DNA of 64,000 bases from Escherichia phage P896. The stretch lies in sequence record OL451225.1. One strand, 5' to 3'. Of this stretch, positions 9,301 through 60,275 are shown piece by piece; position 1 is the stretch's first letter; each line of letters opens with the position of its first letter. Under the pieces are notes generated by a model that ran no database searches, had not been told where the DNA came from, and saw only the letters and a list, made by a program, of their open reading frames with translations. Position numbers and translations under genes: made by a program.

Positions 9301-9530
9301 CCAGTACAGATGGTAATCATAGCCACTCGTTCTCGGCTACTACTAACACAACAGGTAACCACGCTCATACTGTTGGTATCGGTGCCCATACTCACACTGT
9401 AGGTATCGGCGCTCACACTCACACGGTAGCGATTGGTTCACATGGACACTCTGTTACCATTAACAGCACCGGTAATACAGAAAACACGGTTAAAAACATT
9501 GCTTTTAACTATATCGTTCGTTTAGCATAA
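6342..9530 (+). CDS. 37: Long tail fiber distal subunit gp37 (receptor-binding fiber, T4 type with His-box tip)
   Basis: 1062 aa ORF; C-terminal region has GNHSHS / [34 protein letters not shown] His-x-His repeats and ends [11 protein letters not shown], as I recall for T4 gp37; a phage tail collar-like motif ([23 protein letters not shown]) precedes it. Confidence 0.9.
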
Positions 9531-16013: not shown

Positions 16014-16056
16014 ATTAATTTCCTCAGTAAGTTAAAGTTTTGTGCTCCAGTGGGGT

Positions 16057-16095
16057 CATTATACTCTGACCCCAAGAGTATGTACACTATTTTTG
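16057..16095 (-). promoter_or_regulatory. Early promoter cassette (TGTACA / 17 bp / TATAAT inside an inverted repeat), PeSL-like
   Basis: Minus strand: aaaaatagTGTACAtactcttGGGGTCAgagTATAATGACCCCactggag, 45 nt upstream of the ndd ATG; near-identical copy at 26650-26695. Confidence 0.6.
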
Positions 16096-16431: not shown

Positions 16432-16470
16432 AATGATTTCCTCAGTTAAATTTTATTATCCACTGGGAAC

Positions 16471-16510
16471 ATTATACTCTGCTCCCAAGAGTTTGTACAC
16501 TATTCTACAT
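16471..16510 (-). promoter_or_regulatory. Early promoter cassette (TGTACA / 17 bp / TATAAT), PeSL-like
   Basis: Minus strand: gaatagTGTACAaactcttgggagcagagTATAATgttcccagtgg. Confidence 0.6.
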
Positions 16511-16958: not shown

Positions 16959-17081
16959 TCAAAAGAAATAGTTAAAGTAAACACGCACATGGTCAATCAT
17001 AAAAACAATTGGGAAAATGCTCAGGACAACAAACAGTACAAACATGTTCCAAATGGCTTTAAGTAACTTTTTCATAATCAT
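16959..17081 (-). CDS. Small membrane peptide (40 aa)
   Basis: MIMKKLLKAIWNMFVLFVVLSIFPIVFMIDHVRVYFNYFF read by hand, directly downstream of a promoter cassette with the ATCAACTACTG leader. Confidence 0.35.
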   Translation of the reverse strand: MIMKKLLKAIWNMFVLFVVLSIFPIVFMIDHVRVYFNYFF

Positions 17082-17101
17082 CTCCAGTAGTTGATAGGTT
17101 C

Positions 17102-17140
17102 ATTATACTACAACCACCGGAGATGTACACTTTTTTATGC
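17102..17140 (-). promoter_or_regulatory. Early promoter cassette (TGTACA / 16 bp / TATAAT) with ATCAACTACTG leader
   Basis: Minus strand: aaaaaagTGTACAtctccggtggttgtagTATAATgaacctATCAACTACTGGAGATgattATG. Confidence 0.55.
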
Positions 17141-26120: not shown

Positions 26121-26612
26121 TTAGGCAAAATGAATATCAGCATACTCAACGATAAAGCTTTCAGGAACAACCTTAAAGGTTCCAAGGAACACAATATTAT
26201 ACAATTTAACCCCTTCTTCAACCCACTGGTCGGTGATGTAACCGGACATACTAGTGGTTTCATAAGTCGGACCATACATGCAATTGTATTCAAACGGTTT
26301 AGGTGAAACAAAAAAGACACCTTTGCCCAATTTCCATTTAAAATCAACCCCAACATGAGACTGGTCAATGGTTTCAACGTCTTCGGCCACAGGAGCGATG
26401 TACCCAGTAAATTCGGTTGATTCCAGGAATTTAGGATGCACATAAGCCAATTGAGTTTCAGTCTGACCATGTTTAGGAATAATACGCACTTTAACTTCTT
26501 TAATTCCGCCTACTAAATTAGTGCGAAGACTCACAACCTCAACAAAACGACCAGCCGCTTTAGAACGAGATTCTTTAGAAACACGTACAATATCACCAGC
26601 TTCAACTTTCAT
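26121..26612 (-). CDS. Hypothetical protein (MotB-position; paralogous C-terminal domain with 26689..27444)
   Basis: 163 aa; C-terminus GYITDQWVEEGVKLYNIVFLGTFKVVPESFIVEY resembles the C-terminus of the adjacent 251 aa protein. Confidence 0.55.
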   Translation of the reverse strand: MKVEAGDIVRVSKESRSKAAGRFVEVVSLRTNLVGGIKEVKVRIIPKHGQTETQLAYVHPKFLESTEFTGYIAPVAEDVETIDQSHVGVDFKWKLGKGVFFVSPKPFEYNCMYGPTYETTSMSGYITDQWVEEGVKLYNIVFLGTFKVVPESFIVEYADIHFA

Positions 26613-26654
26613 AATTTTCTCTCTTGGTTAATAAATTTATTCTCCAGTGGGGTC

Positions 26655-26695
26655 ATTATACTCTGACCCCAAGAGTTTGTACACAAATTTAATTA
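26655..26695 (-). promoter_or_regulatory. Early promoter cassette (TGTACA / 17 bp / TATAAT inside an inverted repeat), PeSL-like
   Basis: Minus strand: aatttgTGTACAaactcttGGGGTCAgagTATAATGACCCCactggagaa; near-identical to the cassette at 16051-16095. Confidence 0.6.
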
Positions 26696-27444: not shown

Positions 27445-27701
27445 TATGCAACCTTATTGAACATCGCCAGTTGATTAGGTTGTACAACCATAATTTCACG
27501 ACGACCTTTTGTATTTGACACGTTCAGGTAGATGCCTTTGTTCATGTCTGTTTCTTTATCATATACCGCAATTTTATTGACAGTAAAGATTTTACCACGA
27601 ATATTTGCAAATGCACATTCAAACGCTTTAGTCAGACCTGCTTCAGCAGCTTGAAGAGCGGACATTTCATATTGTTGGCCAATTTCAAAAGAAGTAATCA
27701 T
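27444..27701 (-). CDS. Hypothetical protein (85 aa)
   Basis: Track ORF 27444..27749; likely start is the ATG at 27701 (MITSFEIG...), preceded by a promoter cassette and the ATCAACTACTGATGAGGA leader. Confidence 0.5.
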   Translation of the reverse strand: MITSFEIGQQYEMSALQAAEAGLTKAFECAFANIRGKIFTVNKIAVYDKETDMNKGIYLNVSNTKGRREIMVVQPNQLAMFNKVA

Positions 27702-27732
27702 TTTGTTGTCCTCATCAGTAGTTGATGAGATG

Positions 27733-27772
27733 ATTATGTCTCTTTCCATTGGCCTTGTACACTACTTTTTAT
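27733..27772 (-). promoter_or_regulatory. Early promoter cassette (TGTACA / 17 bp / CATAAT) with ATCAACTACTG leader
   Basis: Minus strand: aaaaagtagTGTACAaggccaatggaaagagaCATAATcatctcATCAACTACTGATGAGGAcaacaaaATG. Confidence 0.6.
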
Positions 27773-31202: not shown

Positions 31203-31817
31203 TCAGTAAGAAAGAACGGAAAGATTCCATAATTTATAGTCTTCCCATCTATAAATGCTCTCAATAGAGTCCACGCGTAGCGTAGTTCCCGCAGGGAACA
31301 TCATCTCATCTTCATCATTTACTAATTGTAAGTTTGAAGAACGAGTTATTTCAGGATATAGTCCGTTGAACTCTTCAGGAGGTGCCGCACAAATCATTTT
31401 AAAAATCGCTTCCTGATAATCAAATGCGAATGGTGCATCATTAATACAGAAAATATTTTTGGTTCCATAGAAGCTAAAGGAAGCAAAGTTACGCGCAACA
31501 CTGAAATCTTTGGAGAAACTCATTACACGGTCAAACTCAATCGTAGCACCAACACATCCTACGGTTTCAAGATATGCCAAAGTTTTCTTAGAAATCCCGC
31601 GATATAACTTACCAGGCACAACAGAAGTCAAATTCTTACGAATAATTTTGTTCAAAGTTTCCTGGATAGTGTCTGGCTTATTTTCCATGCACTGCCAGAG
31701 TGTACTCTGTTCCAACTCAGAGTAAATTTCATCAATTTCAATCTGGGTATTTTCGCGAAAATATTCACATTTAACTGCATTGATGTACTCTGCTAATTGG
31801 TGACTTGCGTACAGCAT
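31203..31817 (-). CDS. ModA/ModB-family mono-ADP-ribosyltransferase (R-S-ExE class)
   Basis: Track ORF 31203..31850; likely start at ATG 31817 (MLYASHQ...). Motifs in order: LYRG (Arg), SFSKD (S-x-S), DEDEMMF (ExE). Which of the pair is modA and which modB is not resolved. Confidence 0.7.
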   Translation of the reverse strand: MLYASHQLAEYINAVKCEYFRENTQIEIDEIYSELEQSTLWQCMENKPDTIQETLNKIIRKNLTSVVPGKLYRGISKKTLAYLETVGCVGATIEFDRVMSFSKDFSVARNFASFSFYGTKNIFCINDAPFAFDYQEAIFKMICAAPPEEFNGLYPEITRSSNLQLVNDEDEMMFPAGTTLRVDSIESIYRWEDYKLWNLSVLSY

Positions 31818-31848
31818 TTTATTATCCTCATCAGTAGTTGATAGGAAC

Positions 31849-31885
31849 ATCTTAACATGTCTTATTGTGCTTGTACACAGTCAAG
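31849..31885 (-). promoter_or_regulatory. Early promoter cassette (TGTACA / 17 bp / TAAGAT) with ATCAACTACTG leader
   Basis: Minus strand: TGTACAagcacaataagacatgtTAAGATgttcctATCAACTACTGATGAGgataataaaATG. Confidence 0.5.
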
Positions 31886-32422
31886 AACATAATAATCACC
31901 AACAAATCCAGCATCAACTATCACGAATTTCTGGTCAACTGGAACAAACCATTCAAGCTCAGAATCAATCATGTCCATGTATTCTTCACGTCTTAACGTT
32001 GCCGCCTGTTCGGAACCAGAAGCAGTATTGAAGAATTCCAGTGGGACGTCAAGCGCGATTTTGCGCATCGCATCATGGTAACAAAAAGCTTTGGTCTGAT
32101 TCAATCTGACGATAGTCCTAGTCACATATTCCATTGCAGCAAAATCTCTGGCAATACCATAGTCTTCTGTAAAGGAGGTTATCCTTCCAAATTCAAAAGG
32201 TTGCATTGATTCTTTTGCTTCATCTAACAAATCAATCTCTTGTTGGGTAACCCCGCGATACAAGACTGTATCGGGTATAGATAACCTTGACTTGATGATT
32301 GAGTTAACGTTTGAATGCAAGGTCTTATCAACCTTTGATGTGCGGCATTCAAATAATGAAGCTATCTCCATTTCATTAAATTTTAACTGGTTGGGTTCGG
32401 TATCAGATTTGATGATGTTCAT
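31862..32422 (-). CDS. ModA/ModB-family mono-ADP-ribosyltransferase (R-S-ExE class)
   Basis: 186 aa; motifs VLYRGV (Arg), ITSFTEDYG (S-x-S/T), SELEWFVP (ExE); adjacent to its paralogue as modA-modB are in T4. Confidence 0.7.
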   Translation of the reverse strand: MNIIKSDTEPNQLKFNEMEIASLFECRTSKVDKTLHSNVNSIIKSRLSIPDTVLYRGVTQQEIDLLDEAKESMQPFEFGRITSFTEDYGIARDFAAMEYVTRTIVRLNQTKAFCYHDAMRKIALDVPLEFFNTASGSEQAATLRREEYMDMIDSELEWFVPVDQKFVIVDAGFVGDYYVLDCVQAQ

Positions 32423-35808: not shown

Positions 35809-36837
35809 CTAAACTTTTGCGTACTTCGAAAGTCGCATTCTCGCCATCAATCCTTGAGCAACGTTATCGGCCATATATGATTCGATTTGTTCAGGGGTTG
35901 CCCCTTCTGATTTAACCATCTCATTTATGTCTTTCGTATGCCATGGTGCATTGTCCCAGAACATAACAGCTTCGCCAGCTTCAACGAGCTTCTTCATACG
36001 TTTAATCGTATCCGGATGTCTTGGCTCGTTGTCCATTACCCATACTCTTGTTTCAGCATAAGGAACAGCTTCCAATGCCAATGTGCCACCGGTTATCGCA
36101 ATGCTGTTAGGGATAAACAAACTATCAATTGGACCTTCCATTACCCATACGCGTTTACGCTCATCAATCTTGTCTACTCCATAGACTTTGGAAGCTTCTG
36201 GGTGAGCTTTGATTGTGATATATTTTTGTGGTGCATCTTTGCGAAGAGCTCGTCCTTGGAAAGATTCGATTTCTTTTTTGCCGTTGAAGATAGGAATAAC
36301 CAAGCGTGGTTCATTCGTTTCATTCTTATACGTCCCAGGATTGACGGAGTTAACTAATGCAGGCCATTTGTTTGTAAACCATAACCGGTTCCAAACATTG
36401 CTAGGAATACACCGACTTTTTACATACTTAATTATCGGATGTGCTTCTGGTAAAGTATCGAGTCTTTCACAAAAAGCAAGCTGCTCGATAACCGGAGTTT
36501 TTTCTGGTTCTTTCGGAGTTTCTGCAACTTCATTGCGCTGTCTGCCAAAGGCATTCTCCTTATACTTCTCAACCATATATTCCCGGTGTAAATCCGGCTC
36601 AAACTCTTTTATGTATTTGCTTATATGCGTGGAGTAGTCACAGTTAAAACATTTCACGTAAACCGCGCCATCAGACGGATTGGTATACGCCCAGAATCTG
36701 GCTTTATGTGAATCTTTCTGGGAGTCGCCACAAACTTTACATCTGCAGTTTGCCTTAAATGTGCTCCCGGTGACTTCTCTATAACGTGGTTGATACGATA
36801 AAGCTCTGATTGCAAATTCTCTATCAATATATGACAT
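35809..36837 (-). CDS. 61: DNA primase gp61
   Basis: 342 aa (T4 gp61 342 aa); zinc-binding CxxC...C.NC motif at the N-terminus and a Toprim region (SFQGRAL.KDAPQKYITI, EGPIDSLFI, RVWV.DNEPRHPDTIKRM) matching T4 gp61 as I recall it. Confidence 0.92.
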   Translation of the reverse strand: MSYIDREFAIRALSYQPRYREVTGSTFKANCRCKVCGDSQKDSHKARFWAYTNPSDGAVYVKCFNCDYSTHISKYIKEFEPDLHREYMVEKYKENAFGRQRNEVAETPKEPEKTPVIEQLAFCERLDTLPEAHPIIKYVKSRCIPSNVWNRLWFTNKWPALVNSVNPGTYKNETNEPRLVIPIFNGKKEIESFQGRALRKDAPQKYITIKAHPEASKVYGVDKIDERKRVWVMEGPIDSLFIPNSIAITGGTLALEAVPYAETRVWVMDNEPRHPDTIKRMKKLVEAGEAVMFWDNAPWHTKDINEMVKSEGATPEQIESYMADNVAQGLMARMRLSKYAKV

Positions 36838-37056
36838 AGTTTCCTCATTTCAATGGCCCCGAAGGACCATTATACTGTAGGTTTATCGTCTTTGTTCTTA
36901 CGCTTTTTTGATGGGATTTGTTCAGGGCCTTTATTGACAACTGCCCCGGAAGTGGTACCTGTTGTGATATTAGTTGGGTTTCCACCTGCATCACCTGCAA
37001 CCATATCTTCGTTGATAAAATCTTTGAATGTTTTCATAACACCCCCTTTCCGCTAT

Positions 37057-37248
37057 TTATACAACAAAGATAGCTTTATCACCATTTGCATCAGTCACTT
37101 CATAAGTGTCTTCATGATACAACGGAATAATCCAGGTAACACCATCATCAGCGATAACATGGATTGCTTCTTGGTCTTGCGACACGATTTCATATTCTTC
37201 AAAAAGCTGGAAGACCGAAATCTTAGAGCCCGTACACATTGCACTCAT
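37057..37248 (-). CDS. Hypothetical protein
   Basis: 63 aa ORF in track. Confidence 0.4.
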   Translation of the reverse strand: MSAMCTGSKISVFQLFEEYEIVSQDQEAIHVIADDGVTWIIPLYHEDTYEVTDANGDKAIFVV

Positions 37249-37444
37249 ATTGTTCCCTTCTTTTAATCAATTGACGATGTGCCTTTTTAAGTTTACGAAT
37301 CTGACGTTTAGTCGGTCGCGCAACGTAAGCTTGTGTAGTTACTCGTCCAAAAACACCATACTTAGGCGAAGGAGTATCAATAAAGACTTCCCACTGGCAA
37401 GAGTAACTATATATTGCTTTAGAGAATTGGGTCAAAACAAACAT
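37223..37444 (-). CDS. Hypothetical basic protein
   Basis: 73 aa ORF; start codon lies inside the 45 nt junction repeat. Confidence 0.45.
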   Translation of the reverse strand: MFVLTQFSKAIYSYSCQWEVFIDTPSPKYGVFGRVTTQAYVARPTKRQIRKLKKAHRQLIKRREQYECNVYGL

Positions 37445-37485
37445 ATTAACCTCGCTTCATGAAGGCATTAAAAATCTGGTCATCA
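37441..37485 (-). repeat. Direct repeat copy 1 (gene-junction cassette: last 12 codons + stop + 5 nt + ATG)
   Basis: catattaacctcgcttcatgaaggcattaaaaatctggtcatcaa matches 37801-37845 at 42 of 44 positions. Confidence 0.8.
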
Positions 37486-37805
37486 ATATCAGTAGGCGGT
37501 TCTTGAGCTTTGACCCAAGCCCCTTCCAGAATGTCATTTGCTTCAGTAGATATCATGACCCCAATTTCAGGGTTTCCGGTTATCCAGGCTGCACAATCGC
37601 GGACATTCTTTTTATCAAATGGATAACCACGATTATCTTCACAAGGCCCATTCATTGTCATAAATGAACGAGCCTTTATGATAACATCATCTTTAACGAT
37701 AATATAACCAATCGCCTGATTAAACCGTGGCTCACGAAATTCATAATGGGCATTACCATCATTATTGCTCGCCAGTTCAAAATTCAGAAAATTATAATAA
37801 CTCAT
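37446..37805 (-). CDS. Hypothetical protein ending in DDQIFNAFMKRG
   Basis: 119 aa ORF; C-terminal 12 residues and the downstream junction are shared with the next gene upstream. Confidence 0.5.
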   Translation of the reverse strand: MSYYNFLNFELASNNDGNAHYEFREPRFNQAIGYIIVKDDVIIKARSFMTMNGPCEDNRGYPFDKKNVRDCAAWITGNPEIGVMISTEANDILEGAWVKAQEPPTDIDDQIFNAFMKRG

Positions 37806-37845
37806 ATTAATCTCGCTTCATGAAAGCATTAAAAATCTGGTCATC
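37801..37845 (-). repeat. Direct repeat copy 2 (gene-junction cassette)
   Basis: catattaatctcgcttcatgaaagcattaaaaatctggtcatcaa; see copy 1. Confidence 0.8.
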
Positions 37846-38241
37846 AACTGAATATACAGGGGTTTCCAGAAGTTTCAAAAGACTGTTTTTGATGTACTTA
37901 CCCGGGATACCCTTAACAATACTGTCATTCAACTCATTATCAGGGTTGATGTCTTTAAATTCAAACCCGTCAAACTCAACCTTGTCAGGAATACCGTCAG
38001 CGAAAAAATAAACCAATTGGTGCATTGTATTGCGCGAAAATAATTTAGACTTGACCGCAATAAGTTCTTGCCAATGGTTTAATTCTTTGTTAAGAAGTTT
38101 ATGAGCAAACGTAATTCTATTATCACTATCAACAAGAAAATAACCCAGGTATTGAATCTCGTCGCTCCAAAACACCCTGTATGCCTGCGCATTTGGATTT
38201 TTACAACGAAGTTTTTTGATAACCAAATTTCTGTTAATCAT
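37807..38241 (-). CDS. Hypothetical protein ending in DDQIFNAFMKRD
   Basis: Track ORF 37807..38376; likely start at ATG 38241 (MINRNLVIKK...) in a TAAAATG overlap with the upstream lipoprotein gene stop. Confidence 0.5.
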   Translation of the reverse strand: MINRNLVIKKLRCKNPNAQAYRVFWSDEIQYLGYFLVDSDNRITFAHKLLNKELNHWQELIAVKSKLFSRNTMHQLVYFFADGIPDKVEFDGFEFKDINPDNELNDSIVKGIPGKYIKNSLLKLLETPVYSVDDQIFNAFMKRD

Positions 38242-38242
38242 T

Positions 38243-38536
38243 TTATTCACCTGTAACCCATTGAACAATTTTGCTATTGTCAAATGAAGCATCGCAATAC
38301 AGAATATAGTTATACTGCATAACGTCACCAGAAGACAATTGGTCAGATACTTCTTTAACCATATCAGGGCGGTCACGTTTGGTTATGTTCATGATATCAG
38401 CACGAATCTGGGTTTCAACTTCAGATTGCTCTGCTGTCATAGACCATTCACAAAGGTTTTTATCAAGCCCAGCAGTAACTGGAGCTGTACCACATGATGC
38501 TACGGTAAGAATTGCTGCAATAATTAACTTTTTCAT
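38243..38536 (-). CDS. sp: Periplasmic lipoprotein, Spackle (Sp)-like by size and position
   Basis: 97 aa with signal peptide/lipobox MKKLIIAAILTVASCG; T4 Sp (61.3) is a 97 aa secreted protein in the 61-41 interval. Assignment is by size and position only. Confidence 0.45.
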   Translation of the reverse strand: MKKLIIAAILTVASCGTAPVTAGLDKNLCEWSMTAEQSEVETQIRADIMNITKRDRPDMVKEVSDQLSSGDVMQYNYILYCDASFDNSKIVQWVTGE

Positions 38537-38564
38537 AATGTTCTCCTCAGTAGTTGATATGGAT

Positions 38565-38594
38565 AATATACTGCATTATCCCTTTGATGTAAAC
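38565..38594 (-). promoter_or_regulatory. Early promoter (GTTTACA minus-35 / 17 bp / TATATT) with ATCAACTACTG leader
   Basis: Minus strand: GTTTACAtcaaagggataatgcagTATATTatccatATCAACTACTGAGGAGaacattATG. Confidence 0.5.
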
Positions 38595-38596
38595 TG

Positions 38597-38800
38597 TTAT
38601 TTTTCGTTAGAACGATAATCACATTCAAAAACTTTATTGTCATTAACAAAGGCTTTAACCAGCGCATTATTCACTTCTGCATACTGCACTGTAACCCATT
38701 CAATCATATTTTTGTCACTGACATCCAGCGCGGTTTCTTTGGTAAACATATTACCATTTTCAAACCAACCAATAAACAATACGTTCTCTAATTTATACAT
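38597..38800 (-). CDS. Hypothetical protein
   Basis: 67 aa ORF in track. Confidence 0.45.
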   Translation of the reverse strand: MYKLENVLFIGWFENGNMFTKETALDVSDKNMIEWVTVQYAEVNNALVKAFVNDNKVFECDYRSNEK

Positions 38801-39118
38801 TTAGATTTCCTCACAAAACGCCCAGGCAGCGTGATAAACTGTTGCGCCTTTAGTATCATTTAAACAAACCACGTCAACAGGTGCAATCACACGATAAAGA
38901 CGGGGTTCTCCTCCATATGAGCGAGCTGCTCTTCCTGCATAGATACGCGCCAAACCAATATCTTCAGTAAAAAACACACGCCCTAAATTTTTCTTACGCC
39001 CAACTTCTGACAGAACACCAGTTGCATCAGGAGGACAAAGCATATTTTGGATTCCAGCATTAGAGCTTGACCCATGATAATAAACTTTGTATTCTGCCTT
39101 GCAATCAATGGTTTTCAT
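38801..39118 (-). CDS. Hypothetical protein with possible H-G-S (PARP/diphtheria-toxin-class) ADP-ribosyltransferase-like signature
   Basis: 105 aa; YHGSSSNAGIQNM..PP....G then GRVFFTEDIGLARIYAG resembles the PARP catalytic-core pattern HGS..NFAGIL......PP....G...GKGIYFA; too short for a canonical domain, so speculative. Confidence 0.5.
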   Translation of the reverse strand: MKTIDCKAEYKVYYHGSSSNAGIQNMLCPPDATGVLSEVGRKKNLGRVFFTEDIGLARIYAGRAARSYGGEPRLYRVIAPVDVVCLNDTKGATVYHAAWAFCEEI

Positions 39119-39154
39119 TTTATTCTCCAGTAGTTGATAGGGTCATTATAACAT

Positions 39155-39578: not shown

Positions 39579-39816
39579 CATTAATTAAATGAAAATCTTG
39601 TGCATTGAAAGTAATGAAAAAATAATCATTCCCTTCAACTGAAGCATGACAGGCAACACTACACCAGCGCCTTGCTCTGTTCAAGGAGCAATCCAAAATT
39701 TTAAAAGGCTTCAGACCAACAATGGCAGCTGTTCTTTTATTATGCTCACAAATATCAGCATACTTTTGGAGAGCTTCTTCAGATTTGAACTGGTAATGCA
39801 CATTAACTAATAACAT
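39568..39816 (-). CDS. Hypothetical protein (adjacent to gene 41, where T4 carries dmd)
   Basis: 82 aa ORF with the ATCAACTACTGATGAGGA leader upstream; T4 Dmd is 60 aa, so equivalence is only positional. Confidence 0.4.
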   Translation of the reverse strand: MLLVNVHYQFKSEEALQKYADICEHNKRTAAIVGLKPFKILDCSLNRARRWCSVACHASVEGNDYFFITFNAQDFHLINELK

Positions 39817-39882
39817 TTTATTATCCTCATCAGTAGTTGATGGGATAATAGTACACCCTTTTTATGAGGATGTAAACCCCTA

Positions 39883-39905
39883 AATGAAAAAAGGTCCACC
39901 CGAAG
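39883..39905 (-). terminator. Weak terminator-like hairpin after gene 41
   Basis: Short GC stem (accc..gggt) followed on the minus strand by a T-run, just 3' of the gp41 stop. Confidence 0.3.
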
Positions 39906-43829: not shown

Positions 43830-43901
43830 TTTAATATCCTCAAGTTTGTAATCAGTAGTTGATGGAACAATCATACGGCAATCCTTTGCCGTTGTAAACA
43901 C

Positions 43902-46616
43902 TTAAAAATCAAACATATCAAAAAGAGTTGCTTTCTTTTCGTAATCAACCTTTGCAGCTTCGGAGAAACCTGTTAATGGCTTAACAAAAGTCTTCTGGAA
44001 CAGTGTGTTGTAGTCCATCCACTGCAGAACCTGGTCACGGATTTCAATCGGGAGTTCAATCCCAGATGGCCATGCAATCACGGTTTCACCAAACGGGTTG
44101 CCGACTTTGAGCGGAAGTACATACACCTTTTCCCCTTCCATGATTTGCGGAACAGTCTTCAGACCTTTAGTTGCACGCATATATGCAAGCACACCTTTGA
44201 TATGAGCCGGACACTTAAATCCAGGGAAACCGCCTTCATTATATTTCTGGATGTTGTTAACCGATGATACACCTGCGATGGTCATGTAGTTAAGCTCATT
44301 AAATTCCTTATTGAATTCCTTGAAGTATGTCTGCAGAGATTCTTCACCTTCTTGCAGCATACGGCGGATACATTCTTTCAGAGCTTTCTGACATGCCTTT
44401 GGAGTACTCGACTTTTGAGTTTCCAGACCCATGATTTTCAGTTTCGGAACAGCATATCGTGTGCCTTCCATATCGTACACGTTCAACGCATAACGCTTCT
44501 TCGCTGTCCAGAATCCACCAACACCCTTCGAACCCAGTGGAGGACATGCAATCGCCTCACGGTCCATAAACATAAGGTGCTGTTTGTTGTTCATGTATTC
44601 AGCCAGCTCACGGAAAGCTTTATCGATTGCCGGTTCCAGACGGTCTTTCGCAAACTTGTCCATGAAGTCAACCAGGTGGTTTGTATCGCGGAATTTAGAT
44701 TCACCACCAACCTTTTTAATCAGGTTATCGCACTGGATATAAATGGAGTCAGTGTCACCATAGAATACGTAGGTTTCGCCGCTTGTCCCACAGACACTAT
44801 CGAAGTATTCGTTAACTTTACGCTCAATCCACTGCAATGCAAGTTGTCCGAAAGATGTAATCGCGGTTGCATTTCGCAGGTCAAAGTAACGGAACCATAT
44901 ATTGCCCAGAGCGCCATAACAACTGTTGATAAGCAGTTTACGGTTAATCTGTGCGGTCATGCCTGCAACTTCTTCCATCTGCGCTTTGTACAGCATACCA
45001 TTTAGGACTGTTTGATTCAGACCATGCAGGGCCGTTTTCATATTGTCATCAAAGTCATGACGATAATCAACTTCAGGCTCGGTTGTACCAGTTCCTGGAT
45101 TACGCAGAGCTTCCTTAATCAGTTCACCATTACGTTGAGCCGCAAGCATATAGCCTTTGTGTTCTTTACGCTGATTAAACACCTTGGTGACTTCTGTCGG
45201 AATAATACCCGCAACATCTTTAAAATACATCATACCATTTGGAGCACAACTAAATGTATCAGATGGACGGTCAGCAGTTCCTGCAATGTATTCGTACATC
45301 GGCGCTGGCGCAAATGACCCGGCAATCGTTTCTGGACTGATGTTAATCTGTCGGATAATGCTTGGATACAGAGATGTTAAGTCACAGCTCATTACATATT
45401 TGTATGCGTTCGGAATCGGTTCCTTAACAAATGCACCAGGGAACGATTGGCGAACATGTGATTTGGTTTCCGGAATGACTTTGTTTTGAGTCTTCAGGCT
45501 GTTAAAGATAATCGCATCCCAAGTTTTGATTGGGCTGAATACAGACTGAATCTGCATTTTTGCATAATAACCCATTGACTGGCTCAGGTTAATAAACTGC
45601 CGCTTACGGTCAATCTGCACAACACGATAAACGTCGATGATGTTATAAGAAATATACCGCTGGTGATTTGATTCACGCAGTTTAGAAATCGGGCCATCAT
45701 ACGGGAGTTTACCAACACCCAGTTCAGATTCCGCAACATAATCCAACGAATAAGACGGTTGGTTTGTGAAGCTGAACTTTTTATACAGGTCCAGATAATC
45801 CAGAACAGAGATACCCAGAATCTGAATGATTTCTTGTTCTTCACCAAAGCCGTTGTTAATGACTTTAACTTTTGTACGACGATGTGGGCTCAGACGTTTT
45901 GCCGTAGCTTCACCAAATACATTTTTAAGGCGGTTGTAGATATATGGAATATCAAACTTCTCGATGTTCCAACCAGTTAACATAACCGGAGTTTTCTCGT
46001 TCCAGAATACCAAATACTGCTGGAGCATTTCTTCTTCTGAATCGAAAGCCATATAAACAATTTTTTCCAGGATTTCTTCCGGGACTTCATCACCACCATC
46101 TTCCTGCAGCTTAGCAGCAATATCAATAGACCATTGCTCCACAGTGGCGTATGGTGAGCCCAAAAGGTCAAAGACATAGAATTTATCGTCTACCGAATCA
46201 TAGTGCGTCAGGGCGTCAATAGGGTGACGTGCTTCAGACGGCTCAGGGAACCCATCAGGAGATGTCACCTCGATATCGAAGTTAGCCACACGGATTTTAC
46301 TTGAATCGTATTTGATTTCGTGCGGGTAACGGTCGGACAAGTATGCGAGTTTAAAGTCGTCCATGCCCATGGCTTCGAGGCCCATGTCATTCATTCGCTT
46401 CATCCACTGGGATGCATCACGCATGGAATCGAATTCTTTTTTCACACAACCTTTATTATAGATGTCTGTATACTTTGCAGCTTGGTCTTCACGGGCGTGC
46501 ATAAACAAGCATGGAGCATAAGGGATTTCACGAACACGTTCATGACCATTCTTGTCAATATATCGTTCGTGTAGGTTGTCACCGATTTGTTCGATAGTTA
46601 AATAAAATTCTTGCAT
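43902..46616 (-). CDS. 43: DNA polymerase gp43 (family B, with 3'-5' exonuclease)
   Basis: 904 aa (T4 gp43 898 aa); exonuclease motifs (FDIEV, YNIIDV) and polymerase motifs (SCYGALG, YGDTDS). Confidence 0.95.
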   Translation of the reverse strand: MQEFYLTIEQIGDNLHERYIDKNGHERVREIPYAPCLFMHAREDQAAKYTDIYNKGCVKKEFDSMRDASQWMKRMNDMGLEAMGMDDFKLAYLSDRYPHEIKYDSSKIRVANFDIEVTSPDGFPEPSEARHPIDALTHYDSVDDKFYVFDLLGSPYATVEQWSIDIAAKLQEDGGDEVPEEILEKIVYMAFDSEEEMLQQYLVFWNEKTPVMLTGWNIEKFDIPYIYNRLKNVFGEATAKRLSPHRRTKVKVINNGFGEEQEIIQILGISVLDYLDLYKKFSFTNQPSYSLDYVAESELGVGKLPYDGPISKLRESNHQRYISYNIIDVYRVVQIDRKRQFINLSQSMGYYAKMQIQSVFSPIKTWDAIIFNSLKTQNKVIPETKSHVRQSFPGAFVKEPIPNAYKYVMSCDLTSLYPSIIRQINISPETIAGSFAPAPMYEYIAGTADRPSDTFSCAPNGMMYFKDVAGIIPTEVTKVFNQRKEHKGYMLAAQRNGELIKEALRNPGTGTTEPEVDYRHDFDDNMKTALHGLNQTVLNGMLYKAQMEEVAGMTAQINRKLLINSCYGALGNIWFRYFDLRNATAITSFGQLALQWIERKVNEYFDSVCGTSGETYVFYGDTDSIYIQCDNLIKKVGGESKFRDTNHLVDFMDKFAKDRLEPAIDKAFRELAEYMNNKQHLMFMDREAIACPPLGSKGVGGFWTAKKRYALNVYDMEGTRYAVPKLKIMGLETQKSSTPKACQKALKECIRRMLQEGEESLQTYFKEFNKEFNELNYMTIAGVSSVNNIQKYNEGGFPGFKCPAHIKGVLAYMRATKGLKTVPQIMEGEKVYVLPLKVGNPFGETVIAWPSGIELPIEIRDQVLQWMDYNTLFQKTFVKPLTGFSEAAKVDYEKKATLFDMFDF

Positions 46617-55860: not shown

Positions 55861-55902
55861 GATATATTCCTCAGTCTCATTAAATTAAAATTTTATTATC
55901 CT

Positions 55903-55924
55903 GGGGTCATTATACCATGACCCC
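55903..55924 (-). promoter_or_regulatory. Extended minus-10 promoter (TGgTATAAT) embedded in an 8 bp stem hairpin
   Basis: Minus strand: GGGGTCATGgTATAATGACCCC, about 45 nt upstream of the ATG at 55860; same ggggtca..tgacccc arms as the cassettes at 16051 and 26650. Confidence 0.5.
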
Positions 55925-55932
55925 GTTGGTTT

Positions 55933-56130
55933 TTATTGCGCTTTAGCCGCTTTCCAGCCTTCATACATCATTGCGGCTGATATTAATATCGCTCCTGAAC
56001 AACTTGAATACTTGTGATTCCAAAACCAGTTTAGAAAAACTTCGTCATCGATACCTTGAGCTATCATATTTTCAAAGAACTGACGACGAGCTTCAGCAAT
56101 TCGCTGTGATAATTTAGATTCAGGGTTCAT
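55933..56130 (-). CDS. Hypothetical protein
   Basis: 65 aa ORF in track. Confidence 0.4.
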   Translation of the reverse strand: MNPESKLSQRIAEARRQFFENMIAQGIDDEVFLNWFWNHKYSSCSGAILISAAMMYEGWKAAKAQ

Positions 56131-56820: not shown

Positions 56821-56999
56821 AATTTAGGTCCTTTTGCAACTGTATTGAACAAGCTACGGTCACACACCATCAACGGAGCATCAGGCCATTTCAAAGGACG
56901 ATACCATACATCTTGGTCCGTCACTTTGGTTACTTGCACAGGATAGCCATTTACTGAATAATACTGGTCGGCTTTAATTTCTTTATCTTCAATAACCAT
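56817..56999 (-). CDS. Hypothetical protein (60 aa)
   Basis: Track ORF 56817..57077; likely start at ATG 56999 (MVIEDKE...), preceded by a promoter cassette and the ATCAACTACTGATGAGGA leader. Confidence 0.45.
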   Translation of the reverse strand: MVIEDKEIKADQYYSVNGYPVQVTKVTDQDVWYRPLKWPDAPLMVCDRSLFNTVAKGPKL

Positions 57000-57030
57000 T
57001 TTGTTTTCCTCATCAGTAGTTGATGGGATA

Positions 57031-57065
57031 ATGATACACCGTTCAAAGGGGCTTGTACACCCCTT
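57031..57065 (-). promoter_or_regulatory. Early promoter cassette (TGTACA in a hairpin loop / 17 bp / TATCAT) with ATCAACTACTG leader
   Basis: Minus strand: aaaaaGGGGtGTACAagCCCCtttgaacggtgTATCATtatcccATCAACTACTGATGAGGAaaacaaaATG. Confidence 0.55.
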
Positions 57066-57066
57066 T

Positions 57067-57384
57067 TTAATCTTCAATTAAGTCCTGGTCATACCCCAGG
57101 GATATCAGTTTTGTTTTAAAGGCAGGAATATTTGTCATTTTTTCATCATTGACAAAAATCACTGGGTAACGAATGTTAAGGGTAGGATATCCAGCACGCT
57201 TAGCCAAAGACACGATTAATGGCCTGTCATAAGCGATTTCAGAGCCTTGTTTGTTAAGGACTGAATAGAATGTATAAGGAAGGTTTAAGGAGCCCAGAAG
57301 GCTCCTGACGTGCATACAACCTGGGCATCGACCGACTTCTTCGGGGATACCATAGATTTCAATCTTAGTCGAGTTTTGGTCCAC
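57067..57384 (-). CDS. nrdH: Glutaredoxin-like redoxin (NrdH-like)
   Basis: 105 aa with a CPGC redox motif near the N-terminus; between 55 and nrdG as T4 nrdH is. Confidence 0.6.
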   Translation of the reverse strand: MDQNSTKIEIYGIPEEVGRCPGCMHVRSLLGSLNLPYTFYSVLNKQGSEIAYDRPLIVSLAKRAGYPTLNIRYPVIFVNDEKMTNIPAFKTKLISLGYDQDLIED

Positions 57385-57990: not shown

Positions 57991-58461
57991 TTAATCATGT
58001 TTCCACACCCCATCGGTATTTGACCAAAGTCGCTGATTATCCGACCCTCGCCACAGTTTTTTGGTCGGAAGATTTTTCTCATACTTCCCATCAATAATAA
58101 CATCAACATATTTAAGCATTTCTAGTTGTTTAATATCTTCAAACTTATATCCTGTCCACATCCAAATGCTTTTATTGGGATAAAGATTTTTAATAGTTTG
58201 AACCACAGAGTGAATAACATCTCGGTTATCAGGATAGAGAGGGTCTCCTCCGGTTATAGTTAATCCTTCTATATAATCATTATTCAAACATTCAATTAAT
58301 TGTTCTAGTGTTTTACCAGTAAATGGAACACCATTTCTAGCATTCCATGTTGATTTATTATAACACCCTTCGCATTTATGCAAACAACCTGTAACGAAAA
58401 GAACGACCCTGCATCCAGGGCCATTCACAAAATCGCAAGGATAAAATCTATCATAATTCAT
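57991..58461 (-). CDS. nrdG: Anaerobic ribonucleotide reductase activating protein NrdG (radical SAM)
   Basis: 156 aa (T4 NrdG 156 aa); Cys cluster GCLHKCEGC. Confidence 0.9.
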   Translation of the reverse strand: MNYDRFYPCDFVNGPGCRVVLFVTGCLHKCEGCYNKSTWNARNGVPFTGKTLEQLIECLNNDYIEGLTITGGDPLYPDNRDVIHSVVQTIKNLYPNKSIWMWTGYKFEDIKQLEMLKYVDVIIDGKYEKNLPTKKLWRGSDNQRLWSNTDGVWKHD

Positions 58462-60275
58462 TGGTGTTTAACCCTATGCATGATTTCTTTATTTTTGCCG
58501 AGATTAAATCCGCGTTCGTTCGGATTTCCCAAATAACCACAAGTTCTTCTTATTGTGTTCATCTTTTTAGGGTCAGTTTCTCCACAAATAGAACAAACAA
58601 ATCCGTTTTCAGTAGGAGTCATTTCATGGGTACTTCCACATGTAAAACATTTATCTACTGGCATATTAACACCAAAATAATCTAAATGTTGTGCAGCATA
58701 ATCCCACACAGCCTCAAGACCTTTTAGGTTATTTTTCATATCAGGAAGTTCAACATAAGAAATGTGACCGCCTGTCGCAATGAAATGATACGGTGCTTCG
58801 CGAGAAATCTTTTCAAACGGAGTAATATTTTCTTCTACTGAAACATGGAAACTATTAGTGTACCAGCCTTTATCAGTAACATCTTTTACACTTCCATATT
58901 TTTCAGTATCAAGTTTACAGAAGCGATAGCACAGGTTTTCAGCAGGAGTAGAATACAAGCTAAAAGCAAAACCGGTTCTTTCGGTCCACTGCTTAAGACG
59001 AGCATTCATTTTAGTTAAAATTTCTTGCCCAATATCACGACCGACAAGAATATTCAATTCGTGAATACCAATGTATCCCAAAGACACTGAACTTCTACCG
59101 TTTTTAAATAACTCAATTATATCATCATCGGGTTTAAGACGAACCCCGAATGCACCTTCTTGGTAAAGAATAGGAGCAACAGTCGCTTTAACTCCTTTTA
59201 AGGAATTAATTCTACACATCAAAGCTTCAAAACACAAATCCATTCGCTCATTGAACAATTCAGTAAATTTCTGTTCATTGAACTGTGTTCCAATATAAGA
59301 ATCTAACGCAATACGAGGAAGATTCAGTGTTACAACGCCAAGATTATTACGCCCATCAAGAATTTCATTACCAGCCGAATCTTTCCATACGCTCAAGAAA
59401 CTACGGCAACCCATCGGAGAAACAGGAACTGAAGAACCGGTAATAGCTTTATTATTCTTAACCGAAATAATGTCAGGATACATTCTTTTGCTTGCACACT
59501 CTAAAGCAAGCTGCTTAATATCATAGTTCGGGTCGTCTTTATAAAGATTAACACCTTCTTCAACGAACATAACAAGTTTAGGGAAAATAGGAGTTATCCC
59601 ATCACGACCAAGACCTTTAATACGATTTTTCAGAATTGCTTTCTGAATCATTCGTTCGGTCCAGTCAGTTCCGGTACCAAATGTAATTGTCACAAAAGGA
59701 GTCTGACCATTTGAGCTAAAGAGAGTATTTACTTCATATTCATAAGCTTGGAATGCGTCGTATACGTCTTTTTCTGTTTTAGATTGTGCATAATTCAACG
59801 CATCAGTGATTTGCCATTTTTCCGCGTCCTCAATATGTTTCGCATAGGTACGTTTAACATAAGGAGAAAGTACTTTATCTACATTCGCAAAAGTCGTTCC
59901 GCCATATTGATGGGAAGCAACCTGTGCAGTAATTTGTGCCATAATTGCAGTAGCAACACTGATTGATTTAGGAGTTTCAATCTGTGCATTACCGAGCTTA
60001 AACCCGTTCTCAAGCATTCCTTTTAAATCTACTAAACAGCAATTAGTAAATGGAAGAGCAGGGGAATAATCAATATCATGGAAATGAATAATTCCACTTT
60101 CATGTGCTTTCATAATAAAAGACGCGACCATATTTTTGGCAATGTGTTTAGATACAATACCAGCCATAAGGTCCCGTTGAGTTGGAAAAACACGAGAATC
60201 TTTATTAGCATTCTCGTTTAAAAGGTCTTTATTAGTTTTATGAATCAATCCTTCAATTTCGTTTTCAATTGTCAT
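58458..60275 (-). CDS. nrdD: Anaerobic ribonucleoside-triphosphate reductase NrdD (glycyl radical enzyme), uninterrupted
   Basis: 605 aa continuous ORF (T4 NrdD 605 aa after intron splicing); C-terminal glycyl-radical motif RRTCGYLG and Zn-ribbon cysteines. Confidence 0.93.
   Translation of the reverse strand: MTIENEIEGLIHKTNKDLLNENANKDSRVFPTQRDLMAGIVSKHIAKNMVASFIMKAHESGIIHFHDIDYSPALPFTNCCLVDLKGMLENGFKLGNAQIETPKSISVATAIMAQITAQVASHQYGGTTFANVDKVLSPYVKRTYAKHIEDAEKWQITDALNYAQSKTEKDVYDAFQAYEYEVNTLFSSNGQTPFVTITFGTGTDWTERMIQKAILKNRIKGLGRDGITPIFPKLVMFVEEGVNLYKDDPNYDIKQLALECASKRMYPDIISVKNNKAITGSSVPVSPMGCRSFLSVWKDSAGNEILDGRNNLGVVTLNLPRIALDSYIGTQFNEQKFTELFNERMDLCFEALMCRINSLKGVKATVAPILYQEGAFGVRLKPDDDIIELFKNGRSSVSLGYIGIHELNILVGRDIGQEILTKMNARLKQWTERTGFAFSLYSTPAENLCYRFCKLDTEKYGSVKDVTDKGWYTNSFHVSVEENITPFEKISREAPYHFIATGGHISYVELPDMKNNLKGLEAVWDYAAQHLDYFGVNMPVDKCFTCGSTHEMTPTENGFVCSICGETDPKKMNTIRRTCGYLGNPNERGFNLGKNKEIMHRVKHQ

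What the first reader, a model, noticed from the sequence alone, without database searches (positions are those of the whole stretch)
37441..37845. Two unrelated adjacent small genes share an identical 45 nt junction cassette (C-terminal DDQIFNAFMKR + stop + start of next gene)
37441-37485 and 37801-37845 are 42/44 identical. Each covers the last 12 codons of a gene (119 aa and about 144 aa proteins that are otherwise dissimilar), its stop codon, a 5 nt spacer and the ATG of the next gene. Either a common C-terminal peptide is being appended to different proteins (a tag, degron or interaction motif), or this is a recombination junction left by modular gene shuffling in the 61-41 plastic region.
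Basis: seen in the sequence. Interest (0 to 1): 0.5.

Follow-up and report, generated by a model that had tools for sequence, protein, structure and literature searches.

The report
Shared tail of tandem AdfA-like genes
Two neighbouring small early genes of a T4-like phage end in the same 13-residue peptide and the same stop/start junction because they are probably very old, fast-diverging paralogues of the anti-defence protein AdfA (T4 gp61.2), whose C-terminal tail is kept almost invariant by selection and is homogenised between copies by recombination; this is an instructive but largely ordinary case.

Summary
The repeat is real: window 37442-37486 and 37803-37847 are 43/45 identical, 361 nt apart, on the minus strand.

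Each copy holds the last 13 codons ([I/V]DDQIFNAFMKR[G/D]), TAA, one T and the next gene's ATG. The Shine-Dalgarno of the next gene lies in the last codons.

The two genes are probably not unrelated. The same tail ends T4 gp61.2 (AdfA, anti-DarT factor A). In 1.84 billion representative proteins, the tail occurs only in AdfA, the 118/119-aa family and the 144-aa family. All three sit in the slot downstream of sp, ahead of gene 61.1.

With the tails removed, the families still match each other. Pfam AdfA covers a T4-type 118-aa member over its C-terminal half, above the curated threshold.

Selection acts on the peptide: tail pN 0.03 against 0.39 in the body, while synonymous sites diverge between genera. 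Within a lineage, tails of different families share codon choices and polymorphisms, which indicates gene conversion. This may also explain clean gain and loss of the 119-aa gene.

The tail's biochemical role is unknown. I infer a tethered interaction helix. It is not a PeSL, an RNA structure or a general tag.

The parts
37807..38241 (-). 144-aa gene (phrog_8539), the first AdfA-like paralogue. ATG at 38241-38239, one nt after the sp stop codon; stop TAA at 37809-37807.
   Evidence: ORF list. PHROG hit E 2.2e-90 over the full length. Junction bases checked. The family is found in 85 phage records.
37446..37805 (-). 119-aa gene (phrog_4122), the second AdfA-like paralogue. It corresponds to the C-terminal half of AdfA. 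Stop TAA at 37448-37446.
   Evidence: ORF list. PHROG hit E 8.8e-53. 100% identical to a protein of Escherichia phage P896. The family is found in 332 phage records. The T4-type member P0017 passes the Pfam AdfA threshold over residues 21-118.
37803..37847 (-). Repeat copy 2. It holds 12 2/3 of the last 13 codons of the 144-aa gene (VDDQIFNAFMKRD, 37810-37848), TAA (37807-37809), T (37806) and the ATG of the 119-aa gene (37803-37805).
37442..37486 (-). Repeat copy 1. It holds the last codons of the 119-aa gene (IDDQIFNAFMKRG, 37449-37487), TAA (37446-37448), T (37445) and the ATG of the DUF7279 gene (37442-37444). The Shine-Dalgarno GAGG at 37450-37453 lies inside the Arg-Gly codons.
37223..37444 (-). 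Downstream 73-aa gene (Pfam DUF7279), translationally coupled to the 119-aa gene through copy 1.
   Evidence: Pfam E 3.3e-20; ORF list.
38243..38536 (-). sp (spackle), the conserved upstream boundary of the slot.
   Evidence: Pfam T4_Spackle E 1.7e-42.
36870..37037 (-). Gene 61.1 homologue. In T4 this gene directly follows the tail of gp61.2. It sits just upstream of primase gene 61 (35809-36837).
   Evidence: PHROG 1823 E 8.2e-32. T4 and SP18 annotation.
38565..38593 (-). Early-promoter-like site (TTTACA-17-TATATT) upstream of sp. No terminator-like site was found on the minus strand across the scanned region (36800-38900), so sp and the genes downstream of it are probably co-transcribed.
   Evidence: It belongs to the promoter/leader repeat family.

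Best explanation
The two copies are the homologous 3' ends of two tandem, anciently diverged paralogues of the AdfA (T4 gp61.2, anti-DarT factor A) superfamily.

**The family.** It is built from one module of about 100 aa. The module is a beta-meander with the motif G-x-h-h-V-K-D-N-x-I, then a P/D-F-x-x-x-N-h-x-D-x-A helix, followed by a hydrophilic linker of variable length and an almost invariant C-terminal peptide, [S/D]-[I/V]-D-D-Q-I-F-N-A-F-M-[K/N]-[R/K]-[G/D]. AdfA carries two modules. The 119-aa and 144-aa proteins carry one each. All are encoded in the slot that begins directly after sp and lies ahead of gene 61.1, in an early operon with 1-nt gene spacers.

**Three overlapping constraints make the 45-mer look like a cassette.**
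1. Strong purifying selection on the peptide (shown).
2. The last two sense codons, the stop codon and the T before the ATG act as the ribosome-binding and re-initiation site of the next gene. They co-vary with that gene (shown as a correlation; the function is inferred).
3. Recurrent gene conversion or unequal crossing-over occurs between the roughly 33-nt identical cores of tails lying 361 nt apart. This keeps paralogous tails of one lineage alike at synonymous sites. It also lets the 119-aa gene be lost or gained in frame (inferred from mosaic polymorphism and from present/absent genomes).

**Function of the peptide (inferred, not shown).** I take it to be a short amphipathic helix, tethered by a flexible linker, that gives every paralogue one common interaction. 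That interaction could be with a shared partner or with each other. The fast-evolving bodies would carry target specificity, as known for AdfA and DarT1, where residue 164 of the second module decides binding.
For: **The tail also ends AdfA**
- Pfam PF23813 matches positions 198-211 of 211.
- The T4 61.2/61.1 junction reads ...SIDDQIFNAFMNRG-TAA-T-ATG.
- RB69 AdfA has the same tail.

**The tail is restricted to one superfamily**
- A tail profile searched against 1.84e9 representative proteins found only AdfA, the 144/146/143-aa proteins, the 119/118/125-aa proteins and fragments of these.
- tblastn found 845 places in 705 phage records. Every organism and host named in the output is an enterobacterial phage; every locus I inspected is Tevenvirinae.

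**Same genomic slot, different combinations**
- T4: sp-AdfA-61.1.
- RB33 and Shfl2: sp-AdfA-118-61.1.
- T2: sp-118-61.1.
- Mosigvirus: sp-AdfA, then a 63-65-aa gene.
- Five 144-then-DUF7279 contigs with NRG tails (L005, L006, L012, L014, L015; genus not read) and VR26: 144-DUF7279.
- Gaprivervirus and the window: sp-144-119-DUF7279.

**Homology outside the tail**
- Pfam AdfA covers P0017 residues 21-118 against profile positions 112-211, at 32.4 bits with a cut-off of 27.
- A tail-less 119 HMM ranks all three AdfA sequences above 348 decoy ORFs (E 1.7e-5 to 0.013). A tail-less AdfA HMM has seven family members (six 119-family sequences and P0018 of the 144 family) as its seven best hits, E 0.018-0.10, ahead of every decoy.
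- In tail-less hhalign comparisons, 5 of 6 family pairs beat all 100 column shuffles, by 3.7-6.9 sd; the sixth pair was 3.3 sd.
- The two independent AF2 models have the same order of secondary-structure elements.
- Foldseek with the 119 model finds the 144 family and an AdfA-sized protein as the best non-self viral hits.

**Selection acts on the peptide**
- Window against RB33 for the 119 family: body pN 0.39 and pS 0.72; paired 13-codon tails pN 0.03 and pS 0.60 (the 14-codon stretch cut from the gene alignment gives pN 0.12 and pS 0.68).
- Neighbouring genes have pS 0.69-0.85.
- Many synonymous variants all encode DDQIFNAFM.

**Concerted evolution of the tails**
- Tequatrovirus tails of both AdfA and the 118-aa gene use CAA/GCT/TTT/AAT/AGA. 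Gaprivervirus tails of both the 144 and 119 genes use CAG/GCC/TTC/AAG/CGA.
- Paralogous tails within one genome have pS 0-0.44, although the bodies are saturated.
- Among 14 Gapriverviruses, the GAT/GAC and GCT/GCC polymorphisms occur in both tails. A 144-type 'S-V-D' 5' edge appears in the 119 tail of VR20, RZ, 212, PSD2001 and TH40.

**The 3' end follows the downstream gene**
- AGA GGT before 61.1.
- CGA GGT before DUF7279.
- AAA GGT, AGA GAT or CGA GAT before the 118/119 gene.
- T4's AdfA tail carries the state that RB33's 118-aa tail has before 61.1. This is what a core crossover deleting the 118-aa gene would leave.

**Variable linker before the tail**
- EPPTD, EQS, ESSIA, PSEKQPKVNVS, PPEEKAEAIEVELEIS, TDFASRGQKVS.

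**The tail alone does not bind DarT1.** Wild-type RB69 AdfA carries the tail but does not bind DarT1 (PMC11825919, read).
Against: - Homology of the 144-aa family to the others rests on weak scores.
  - A tail-less 144 HMM hits a decoy, the NrdG-like ORF, better than it hits AdfA.
  - Foldseek with the 144 model finds only its own family.
- Both AF2 models are of low confidence (mean pLDDT 64 and 58). The tail itself is below 50 in both. Whether the tail is free or packed onto the domain is therefore not resolved.
- No partner for the tail is known, and none could be tested.
- The tail counts are small, about 7 synonymous sites. Each single pS value is noisy, and the argument rests on the consistent pattern.
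- Lineage-specific codon states could partly reflect selection for translational coupling rather than gene conversion.
- VR26's junction implies a crossover within the last 8 nt of the repeat, not in its core.
Confidence: 0.72

Rival explanations
1. The C-terminal helix is an integral part of the domain fold, a core-packing element. It is simply the slowest-evolving part of a fast-evolving family. It has no separate docking role, and the DNA identity is a by-product.
For: - The tail is predicted helical in the 119 model, H106-118.
- It is hydrophobic and aromatic (I, F, F, M), as a core element would be.
- The bodies are homologous, so a shared structural element is expected.
Against: - The tail is separated from the body by a linker that varies in length (3 to 16 or more residues) and in sequence, and that is rich in Pro, Glu and Lys.
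- The tail has the lowest pLDDT in both models.
- Core elements normally co-vary with the rest of the core. Here the bodies are under 20% identical while nine tail residues are invariant.
- The 144 model shows no helix at the tail.
Confidence: 0.25
2. The repeat is a DNA-level recombination linker. It would be a conserved boundary sequence, kept because it mediates modular exchange of unrelated gene cassettes in the 61-41 plastic region, as PeSLs or lambdoid linker sequences do. The encoded peptide would be incidental.
For: - The repeat flanks a gene that is present in some close relatives and absent in others: VR25 against VR26, RB33 against T4.
- Tails group by lineage.
- T4 recombination needs less than 50 bp of homology (PMC2839356).
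Against: - Synonymous positions differ freely between genera while the amino acids do not: pN/pS is about 0.05 in the tail, and 4 of about 7 synonymous sites differ between T4 and the window.
- There is no promoter or stem-loop in the cassette.
- The genes it joins are homologous to each other, not unrelated.
- The tail occurs at only one locus.
Confidence: 0.08
3. The peptide is a portable tag, such as a degron or a localisation or secretion signal. It would have been acquired independently by unrelated proteins.
For: BLASTP sees no similarity outside the tail. Three different PHROG families carry the tail.
Against: - Only one superfamily carries it, among 1.84e9 representative proteins.
- The bodies share motifs and profile similarity.
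- The extreme C-terminal residues vary (G, D, GE; K/N; R/K). The invariant part lies 3-4 residues inside, which is unlike C-terminal degrons read through the terminal residues.
Confidence: 0.07
4. The cassette is an RNA-level element. It would be a conserved mRNA structure or a binding site for a translational regulator, controlling the downstream gene.
For: - The Shine-Dalgarno (GAGG or AGAGG) lies in the last two codons. The stop and start codons are 1 nt apart.
- The last codons co-vary with the downstream gene.
- The rare Arg codons CGA and AGA are always used, never CGT.
Against: - Folding of four versions gives different, insignificant structures, with z from +1.1 to -1.6.
- The 10-14-nt palindrome around CATG in the window copies is absent from the T4 and Mosigvirus tails.
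- Synonymous sites in codons 2-9 vary.
- This reading explains only the last 8-10 nt.
Confidence: 0.05

Closest known systems
AdfA / T4 gp61.2 (anti-DarT factor A; Pfam PF23813; PMC11825919)
   Same: - The same C-terminal 14 residues and the same stop/RBS/ATG junction.
- The same genomic slot immediately downstream of sp, in an early operon.
- The 119-aa family aligns with the second half of AdfA. This includes the helix that carries the DarT1-specificity residue 164, which corresponds to D70 of the window protein.
- The N-terminal motif K-x-P-N-A-Q-x-Y...G-x-h-h-V-x-D of the 144-aa protein resembles the AdfA N-terminus.
   Different: - The window proteins have one module (119 and 144 aa) instead of two (206-216 aa).
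- They score below the Pfam cut-off (20.5 and 13.1 bits against 27).
- Their targets are unknown and no anti-DarT activity can be assumed.
- The window phage has no two-module AdfA in this slot.
PeSL cassettes of T4-type phages (promoter-early stem-loop; PMC2839356, PMC4122927)
   Same: - Short, conserved direct repeats flank small variable genes in a hyperplastic region.
- They can plausibly mediate excision or insertion by the phage's own homologous recombination.
- The gene is present or absent between close relatives.
   Different: - PeSLs are intergenic, about 100 bp long, and contain an early promoter and a stem-loop.
- This repeat is coding sequence plus a Shine-Dalgarno, with no promoter or hairpin.
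- It is conserved at the peptide level, not the DNA level.
- Genuine promoter/leader repeats occur elsewhere in the window.
Concerted evolution of tandem paralogues by gene conversion (general phenomenon; my own knowledge)
   Same: - Paralogous segments are more alike within a genome or lineage than orthologous segments are between lineages.
- Polymorphisms are shared between the copies, with mosaic tracts.
   Different: The converted tract is only about 40 nt. It coincides with the one segment under extreme purifying selection, while the rest of each gene has diverged beyond BLAST detection.
C-terminal sliding-clamp-binding tails of T4 gp43, gp55 and gp33 (my own knowledge; window examples)
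   Same: Both are short hydrophobic/aromatic peptides at the extreme C-terminus, after a flexible linker, and both are shared by otherwise different proteins. The best non-self match of the tail HMM in the window is the gp55 tail DLDFLYG.
   Different: That match is not significant (E 1.4). The spacing of the hydrophobic residues differs. No binding was tested. This is a lead only.

Membership tests
AdfA (Pfam PF23813) | Whole-protein score at or above the curated gathering cut-off (27 bits) | tested here: not met
   The window 119-aa protein scores 20.5 bits and the 144-aa protein 13.1 bits. Both matches rest essentially on the tail. The T4-type homologue of the 119-aa protein (P0017; the closely similar RB33 118-aa protein is 46% identical to the window protein) scores 32.4 bits over residues 21-118 against profile positions 112-211, so that subfamily passes.
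AdfA (Pfam PF23813) | Two-module architecture of about 206-216 aa | tested here: not met
   The window proteins are 119 and 144 aa, with one module each.
AdfA (Pfam PF23813) | C-terminal motif [I/V]DDQIFNAFM[N/K][R/K][G/D] | tested here: met
AdfA (Pfam PF23813) | Encoded directly downstream of sp, in the sp-to-gene-61 early operon | tested here: met
AdfA (Pfam PF23813) | Binds and neutralises DarT1 (His at position 164) | not testable with these tools
   The aligned position in the 119-aa protein is Asp70, by the HMM alignment. Activity needs an experiment. PMC11825919 shows that even AdfA alleles differ in DarT1 binding.
PHROG phrog_4122 / phrog_8539 | Full-length profile match | tested here: met
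   E 8.8e-53 for residues 1-119 and E 2.2e-90 for residues 1-144. Both families are annotated 'unknown function'.
PeSL regulatory cassette | Early promoter (-35/-10) inside the repeat | tested here: not met
   No promoter-like site lies within 37442-37486 or 37803-37847. The operon's best-placed promoter-like site lies upstream of sp, at 38565-38593.
PeSL regulatory cassette | Conserved stem-loop or terminator | tested here: not met
   Fold z-scores run from +1.1 to -1.6 and the structures are not shared. No minus-strand terminator-like site was found.
PeSL regulatory cassette | Intergenic position flanking genes that vary between close relatives | tested here: inconclusive
   The repeat flanks a variably present gene. 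However, it lies almost wholly in coding sequence.
Sliding-clamp-binding C-terminal motif | Match to the motif, and binding to gp45 | not tested
   The only evidence is an insignificant HMM match to the gp55 tail (E 1.4). No complex prediction was available.

The most novel reading that the evidence does not exclude
The slot downstream of sp may be a diversifying anti-defence locus. A single ~100-aa module would be repeatedly duplicated, fused, split and swapped. Its invariant tethered tail, DDQIFNAFM, would be a docking peptide that delivers every paralogue to one common partner. That partner could be a replisome component such as the sliding clamp or gp32, or a host factor. The variable bodies would each neutralise a different host defence effector, with DarT1 being only the first known. 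The conserved tail-plus-junction would also act as the in-frame homology patch through which new bodies are exchanged between co-infecting phages.
Probability: 0.2. Interest if true: 0.65.

Novelty: new member of a known kind. Interest (0 to 1): 0.35.

Why it matters
AdfA is one of the few characterised phage inhibitors of a toxin-antitoxin defence system. This analysis has four consequences.
- Two 'unknown function' PHROG families, found in 332 and 85 phage genomes, are probably single-module relatives of AdfA at the same locus. They become candidate anti-defence proteins with unknown targets.
- The best-conserved part of the whole superfamily is a 13-residue C-terminal peptide that the AdfA work read here does not discuss. 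It is an obvious target for mutagenesis and pull-downs.
- The locus is a compact natural example of a peptide under strong selection whose coding DNA also serves as a homology patch for gene conversion and for in-frame gene gain and loss.
- On the practical side, the repeat confuses assemblies and annotation. Several records have Ns or spurious duplications here, and T2's '61.2' is really the 118-aa gene.

Tried and rejected
- **Tail-only protein search.** A 48-position profile in the word-indexed database returned only fragments.
- **Word-indexed search with the 119-aa protein.** It found only 8 close relatives, so the AF2 alignments stayed shallow.
- **AF2 models.** Both are of low confidence, mean pLDDT 64 and 58.
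- **Other family libraries.** There is no solved structure for AdfA. PADLOC and NCBIfam gave no hits.
- **RNA structure** was rejected.
- **PeSL identity** was rejected.
- **Apparent tail arrays.** The arrays in phiD1, and a triple 144-aa fusion in phage 04086, contain Ns and were set aside as assembly problems. The 33-aa 'remnant' ORF of FL12 is a frameshifted full-length 118-aa gene, not a deletion product.
- **A decoy hit.** The 144 HMM hit an NrdG-like ORF at E 6.5e-5. I take this as chance, and it sets the noise level for that family.
- **Literature.** The LeRoux 2022 paper is not held. A search for 'gp61.2' found two papers, both apparently reviews, which I did not open.

Full report
**1. 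The observation**

The genes lie on the minus strand. The order, 5' to 3', is:
- dmd (38597-38800)
- sp (38243-38536)
- a 144-aa gene (37807-38241)
- a 119-aa gene (37446-37805)
- a 73-aa DUF7279 gene (37223-37444)
- a 63-aa gene
- 61.1 (36870-37037)
- primase gene 61 (35809-36837)

The repeat finder reports one direct repeat in the region. It lies at 37442-37486 and 37803-37847, is 43/45 identical, and its copies are 361 nt apart. A 34-nt core occurs twice in the window and never in 100 shuffles.

Each copy reads [I/V]DDQIFNAFMKR[G/D], then TAA, one T, and the ATG of the next gene. The spacer is 1 nt, not 5.

With the window's codon usage, two independent encodings of this peptide should differ at about 6.4 codons. 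The two copies differ synonymously at one codon. The probability of one or fewer differences is about 0.001.

**2. Where the window comes from, and what the tail is**

The region is 95-96% identical to Gapriverviruses such as Shigella phage SP18. The 119-aa protein is identical to one of Escherichia phage P896.

Pfam matches the last 14 residues of the 119-aa protein to the extreme C-terminus of AdfA, PF23813 positions 198-211 of 211. AdfA is T4 gp61.2, an inhibitor of the DarT1 toxin. Residue 164 decides whether it binds DarT1 (PMC11825919).

T4 itself has ...SIDDQIFNAFMNRG-TAA-T-ATG at the 61.2/61.1 junction. RB69 AdfA also carries the tail.

- blastn with the junction finds 753 places in 556 phage records.
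- tblastn with the tail finds 845 places in 705 records. Every organism and host named in the output is an enterobacterial phage; every locus I inspected is Tevenvirinae.
- A tail-centred profile searched against 1.84 billion representative proteins finds only AdfA, the 144-aa family (including a divergent 143-aa member, P0018), the 119/118-aa family (including a divergent 125-aa member, P0020) and fragments. The two remaining hits do not involve the tail.

The peptide is therefore not a general tag.

**3. The slot**

Downstream of sp, genomes carry one or two tail-bearing genes in various combinations:
- T4: AdfA.
- RB33 and Shfl2: AdfA plus the 118-aa gene.
- T2: the 118-aa gene only. It is mis-annotated as 61.2, and AdfA is lost.
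- Mosigviruses: AdfA, followed by a 63-65-aa gene.
- Five 144-then-DUF7279 contigs with NRG tails (L005, L006, L012, L014, L015; genus not read) and VR26: the 144-aa gene only.
- Gapriverviruses and the window: the 144-aa plus the 119-aa gene.

**4. Are the bodies unrelated?**

BLASTP sees only the tail. Several other lines point to homology.
- By eye, all families share G-x-h-h-V-K-D-N-x-I followed by [PD]-F-x-x-x-N-h-x-D-x-A. AdfA has this twice.
- Pfam AdfA covers residues 21-118 of the T4-type 118-aa protein against profile positions 112-211, at 32.4 bits, above the 27-bit cut-off. That family is therefore a single-module version of the second half of AdfA. The window protein is 46% identical to the RB33 118-aa protein, a member of that family.
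- With the tails removed, a 119-family HMM ranks the three AdfA sequences above 348 decoy ORFs from the window, and the AdfA HMM returns the favour.
- In tail-less hhalign comparisons, 5 of 6 pairs among 119, 144, AdfA-N and AdfA-C beat all 100 column-shuffled controls, by 3.7-6.9 sd; the sixth pair was 3.3 sd.
- The two AF2 models are of low confidence but show the same order of elements.
- Foldseek with the 119 model gives the 144 family and an AdfA-sized protein as the best non-self viral hits.

The link to the 144-aa family is the weakest. A decoy outscored AdfA, and the reciprocal Foldseek search found nothing. I conclude the two genes are probably remote paralogues.

**5. Peptide or DNA?**

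Between the window and RB33, the 119 family shows body pN 0.39 and pS 0.72. The paired 13-codon tails show pN 0.03 and pS 0.60; the 14-codon stretch cut from the gene alignment gives pN 0.12 and pS 0.68. Neighbouring genes have pS 0.69-0.85.

Tails in different genera use different synonymous codons (GAT/GAC, CAA/CAG, ATT/ATA, GCT/GCC/GCA, TTT/TTC, AGA/CGA), yet they encode the same nine invariant residues. Selection therefore acts on the peptide. The DNA is not conserved as such between lineages.

No shared RNA structure exists. There is no promoter or terminator in the cassette, so it is not a PeSL (PMC2839356).

**6. Concerted evolution**

Tails group by lineage, not by gene family.
- Tequatrovirus AdfA and 118-aa tails share CAA/GCT/TTT/AAT/AGA.
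- Gaprivervirus 144-aa and 119-aa tails share CAG/GCC/TTC/AAG/CGA.
- Paralogous tails within one genome have pS 0-0.44, although the bodies are saturated.
- Among 14 Gapriverviruses, the same polymorphisms occur in both tails.
- A 144-type S-V-D edge, with a linker two codons shorter, has spread into the 119 tail of five phages.

This is the signature of gene conversion between repeats 361 nt apart.

The last two codons and the stop codon follow the downstream gene. They read AGA GGT before 61.1, CGA GGT before DUF7279, and weakened forms before the 118/119 gene. This fits their role as its ribosome-binding site.

T4's AdfA tail carries the state that RB33's 118-aa tail has before 61.1. This is what a core crossover removing the 118-aa gene would leave. 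VR26 looks like a clean loss of the 119-aa gene.

**7. Mechanism**

Shown:
- the family relationship of the 119-aa gene to AdfA;
- restriction of the tail to one superfamily and one locus;
- peptide-level selection;
- lineage-wise homogenisation of the tails;
- correlation of the 3' end with the next gene.

Inferred:
- The tail is a short amphipathic helix on a flexible linker. The linkers vary from 3 to more than 16 residues, and the tail has the lowest pLDDT in both models.
- It gives all paralogues one common interaction, while the variable bodies confer target specificity.
- The tail alone does not bind DarT1. Wild-type RB69 AdfA has the tail but does not bind.

No partner could be tested. 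The tail HMM's best non-self match in the window is the clamp-binding tail of gp55, but that match is insignificant (E 1.4).

**8. Verdict**

The finding is real but mostly explained. It is the conserved end of tandem AdfA-like paralogues, together with a translational-coupling junction, kept alike by selection and gene conversion.

The genes are new, sub-threshold members of a known family. The tail's function is an open, testable question of moderate interest.

Noticed in passing
window 17069-17107, 26606-26644, 27700-27771, 31816-31887, 38548-38575, 39112-39150, 39815-39886, 43853-43906, 56998-57069: This is a family of 7-8 intergenic repeats. Read on the minus strand, each has GT(T/G)TACA, then a -10-like box, then CAACTACTGATGAGGA, then ATG. 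That is an early promoter plus leader and Shine-Dalgarno, the PeSL-like regulatory cassette of T4-type phages. One copy lies just upstream of sp.
   Followed up: partly
window 16039-16093, 16452-16506, 26636-26690, 55890-55944: A second intergenic repeat family with a GGGGTC...GACCCC stem next to a GTACAC box. It looks like a promoter plus stem-loop cassette (family D3).
   Followed up: no
window 9026-9370: Closely spaced 30-nt direct repeats, 30, 42 and 195 nt apart. They suggest a repetitive protein segment (D10 and D15).
   Followed up: no
window ORF ending 54146 (minus) and ORF ending 43905 (minus): The gp55-like ORF ends ...[11 protein letters not shown]. The 916-aa DNA polymerase ORF ends ...ATLFDMFDF. 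I recall these from the literature as the sliding-clamp-binding C-terminal tails. They are the nearest, though insignificant, resemblance to the AdfA tail in the window.
   Followed up: partly
L021 (Escherichia phage T2, NC_054931.1) 1882-2545: The gene annotated '61.2' in T2 is the 118-aa family, not AdfA. AdfA is deleted and the 3' end of sp is altered. This agrees with the statement in PMC11825919 that T2 lacks adfA.
   Followed up: yes
L026 (phage FL12) 1687-2043; L022 (phiD1) 2840-3045; L025 (phage 04086) 2314-3171; L003 (DCP80): The FL12 118-aa gene is a frameshifted pseudogene, annotated as a 33-aa ORF. The phiD1, 04086 and DCP80 records show Ns, duplicated tails or a foreign junction at this locus. 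These are most likely assembly errors caused by the repeat.
   Followed up: partly
window 37807-38376 (minus): The 144-aa gene's reading frame stays open upstream to a GTG (189 aa), overlapping sp. Some records annotate this longer, overlapping ORF (for example CJ20_016). The ATG one base after the sp stop codon is the likely start.
   Followed up: partly
window, NrdG-like ORF on the minus strand, near 58000-58470 (coordinates estimated from the ORF's frame offset, not checked): The tail-less 144-family HMM hits the radical-SAM NrdG-like ORF at E 6.5e-5 (GYKFEDI...IDGKYEKN against GFEFKDI...IDSKYIKNS). I take this as chance similarity.
   Followed up: partly
tails preceding the 118/119-aa gene in several loci (L001, L004, L020, L022, L024, L026, window 37810-37815): In every lineage, the Shine-Dalgarno in front of the 118/119-aa gene is weakened, and by different mutations: GGT to GAT or GAC, or AGA to AAA. 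This may be convergent tuning of its translation.
   Followed up: no
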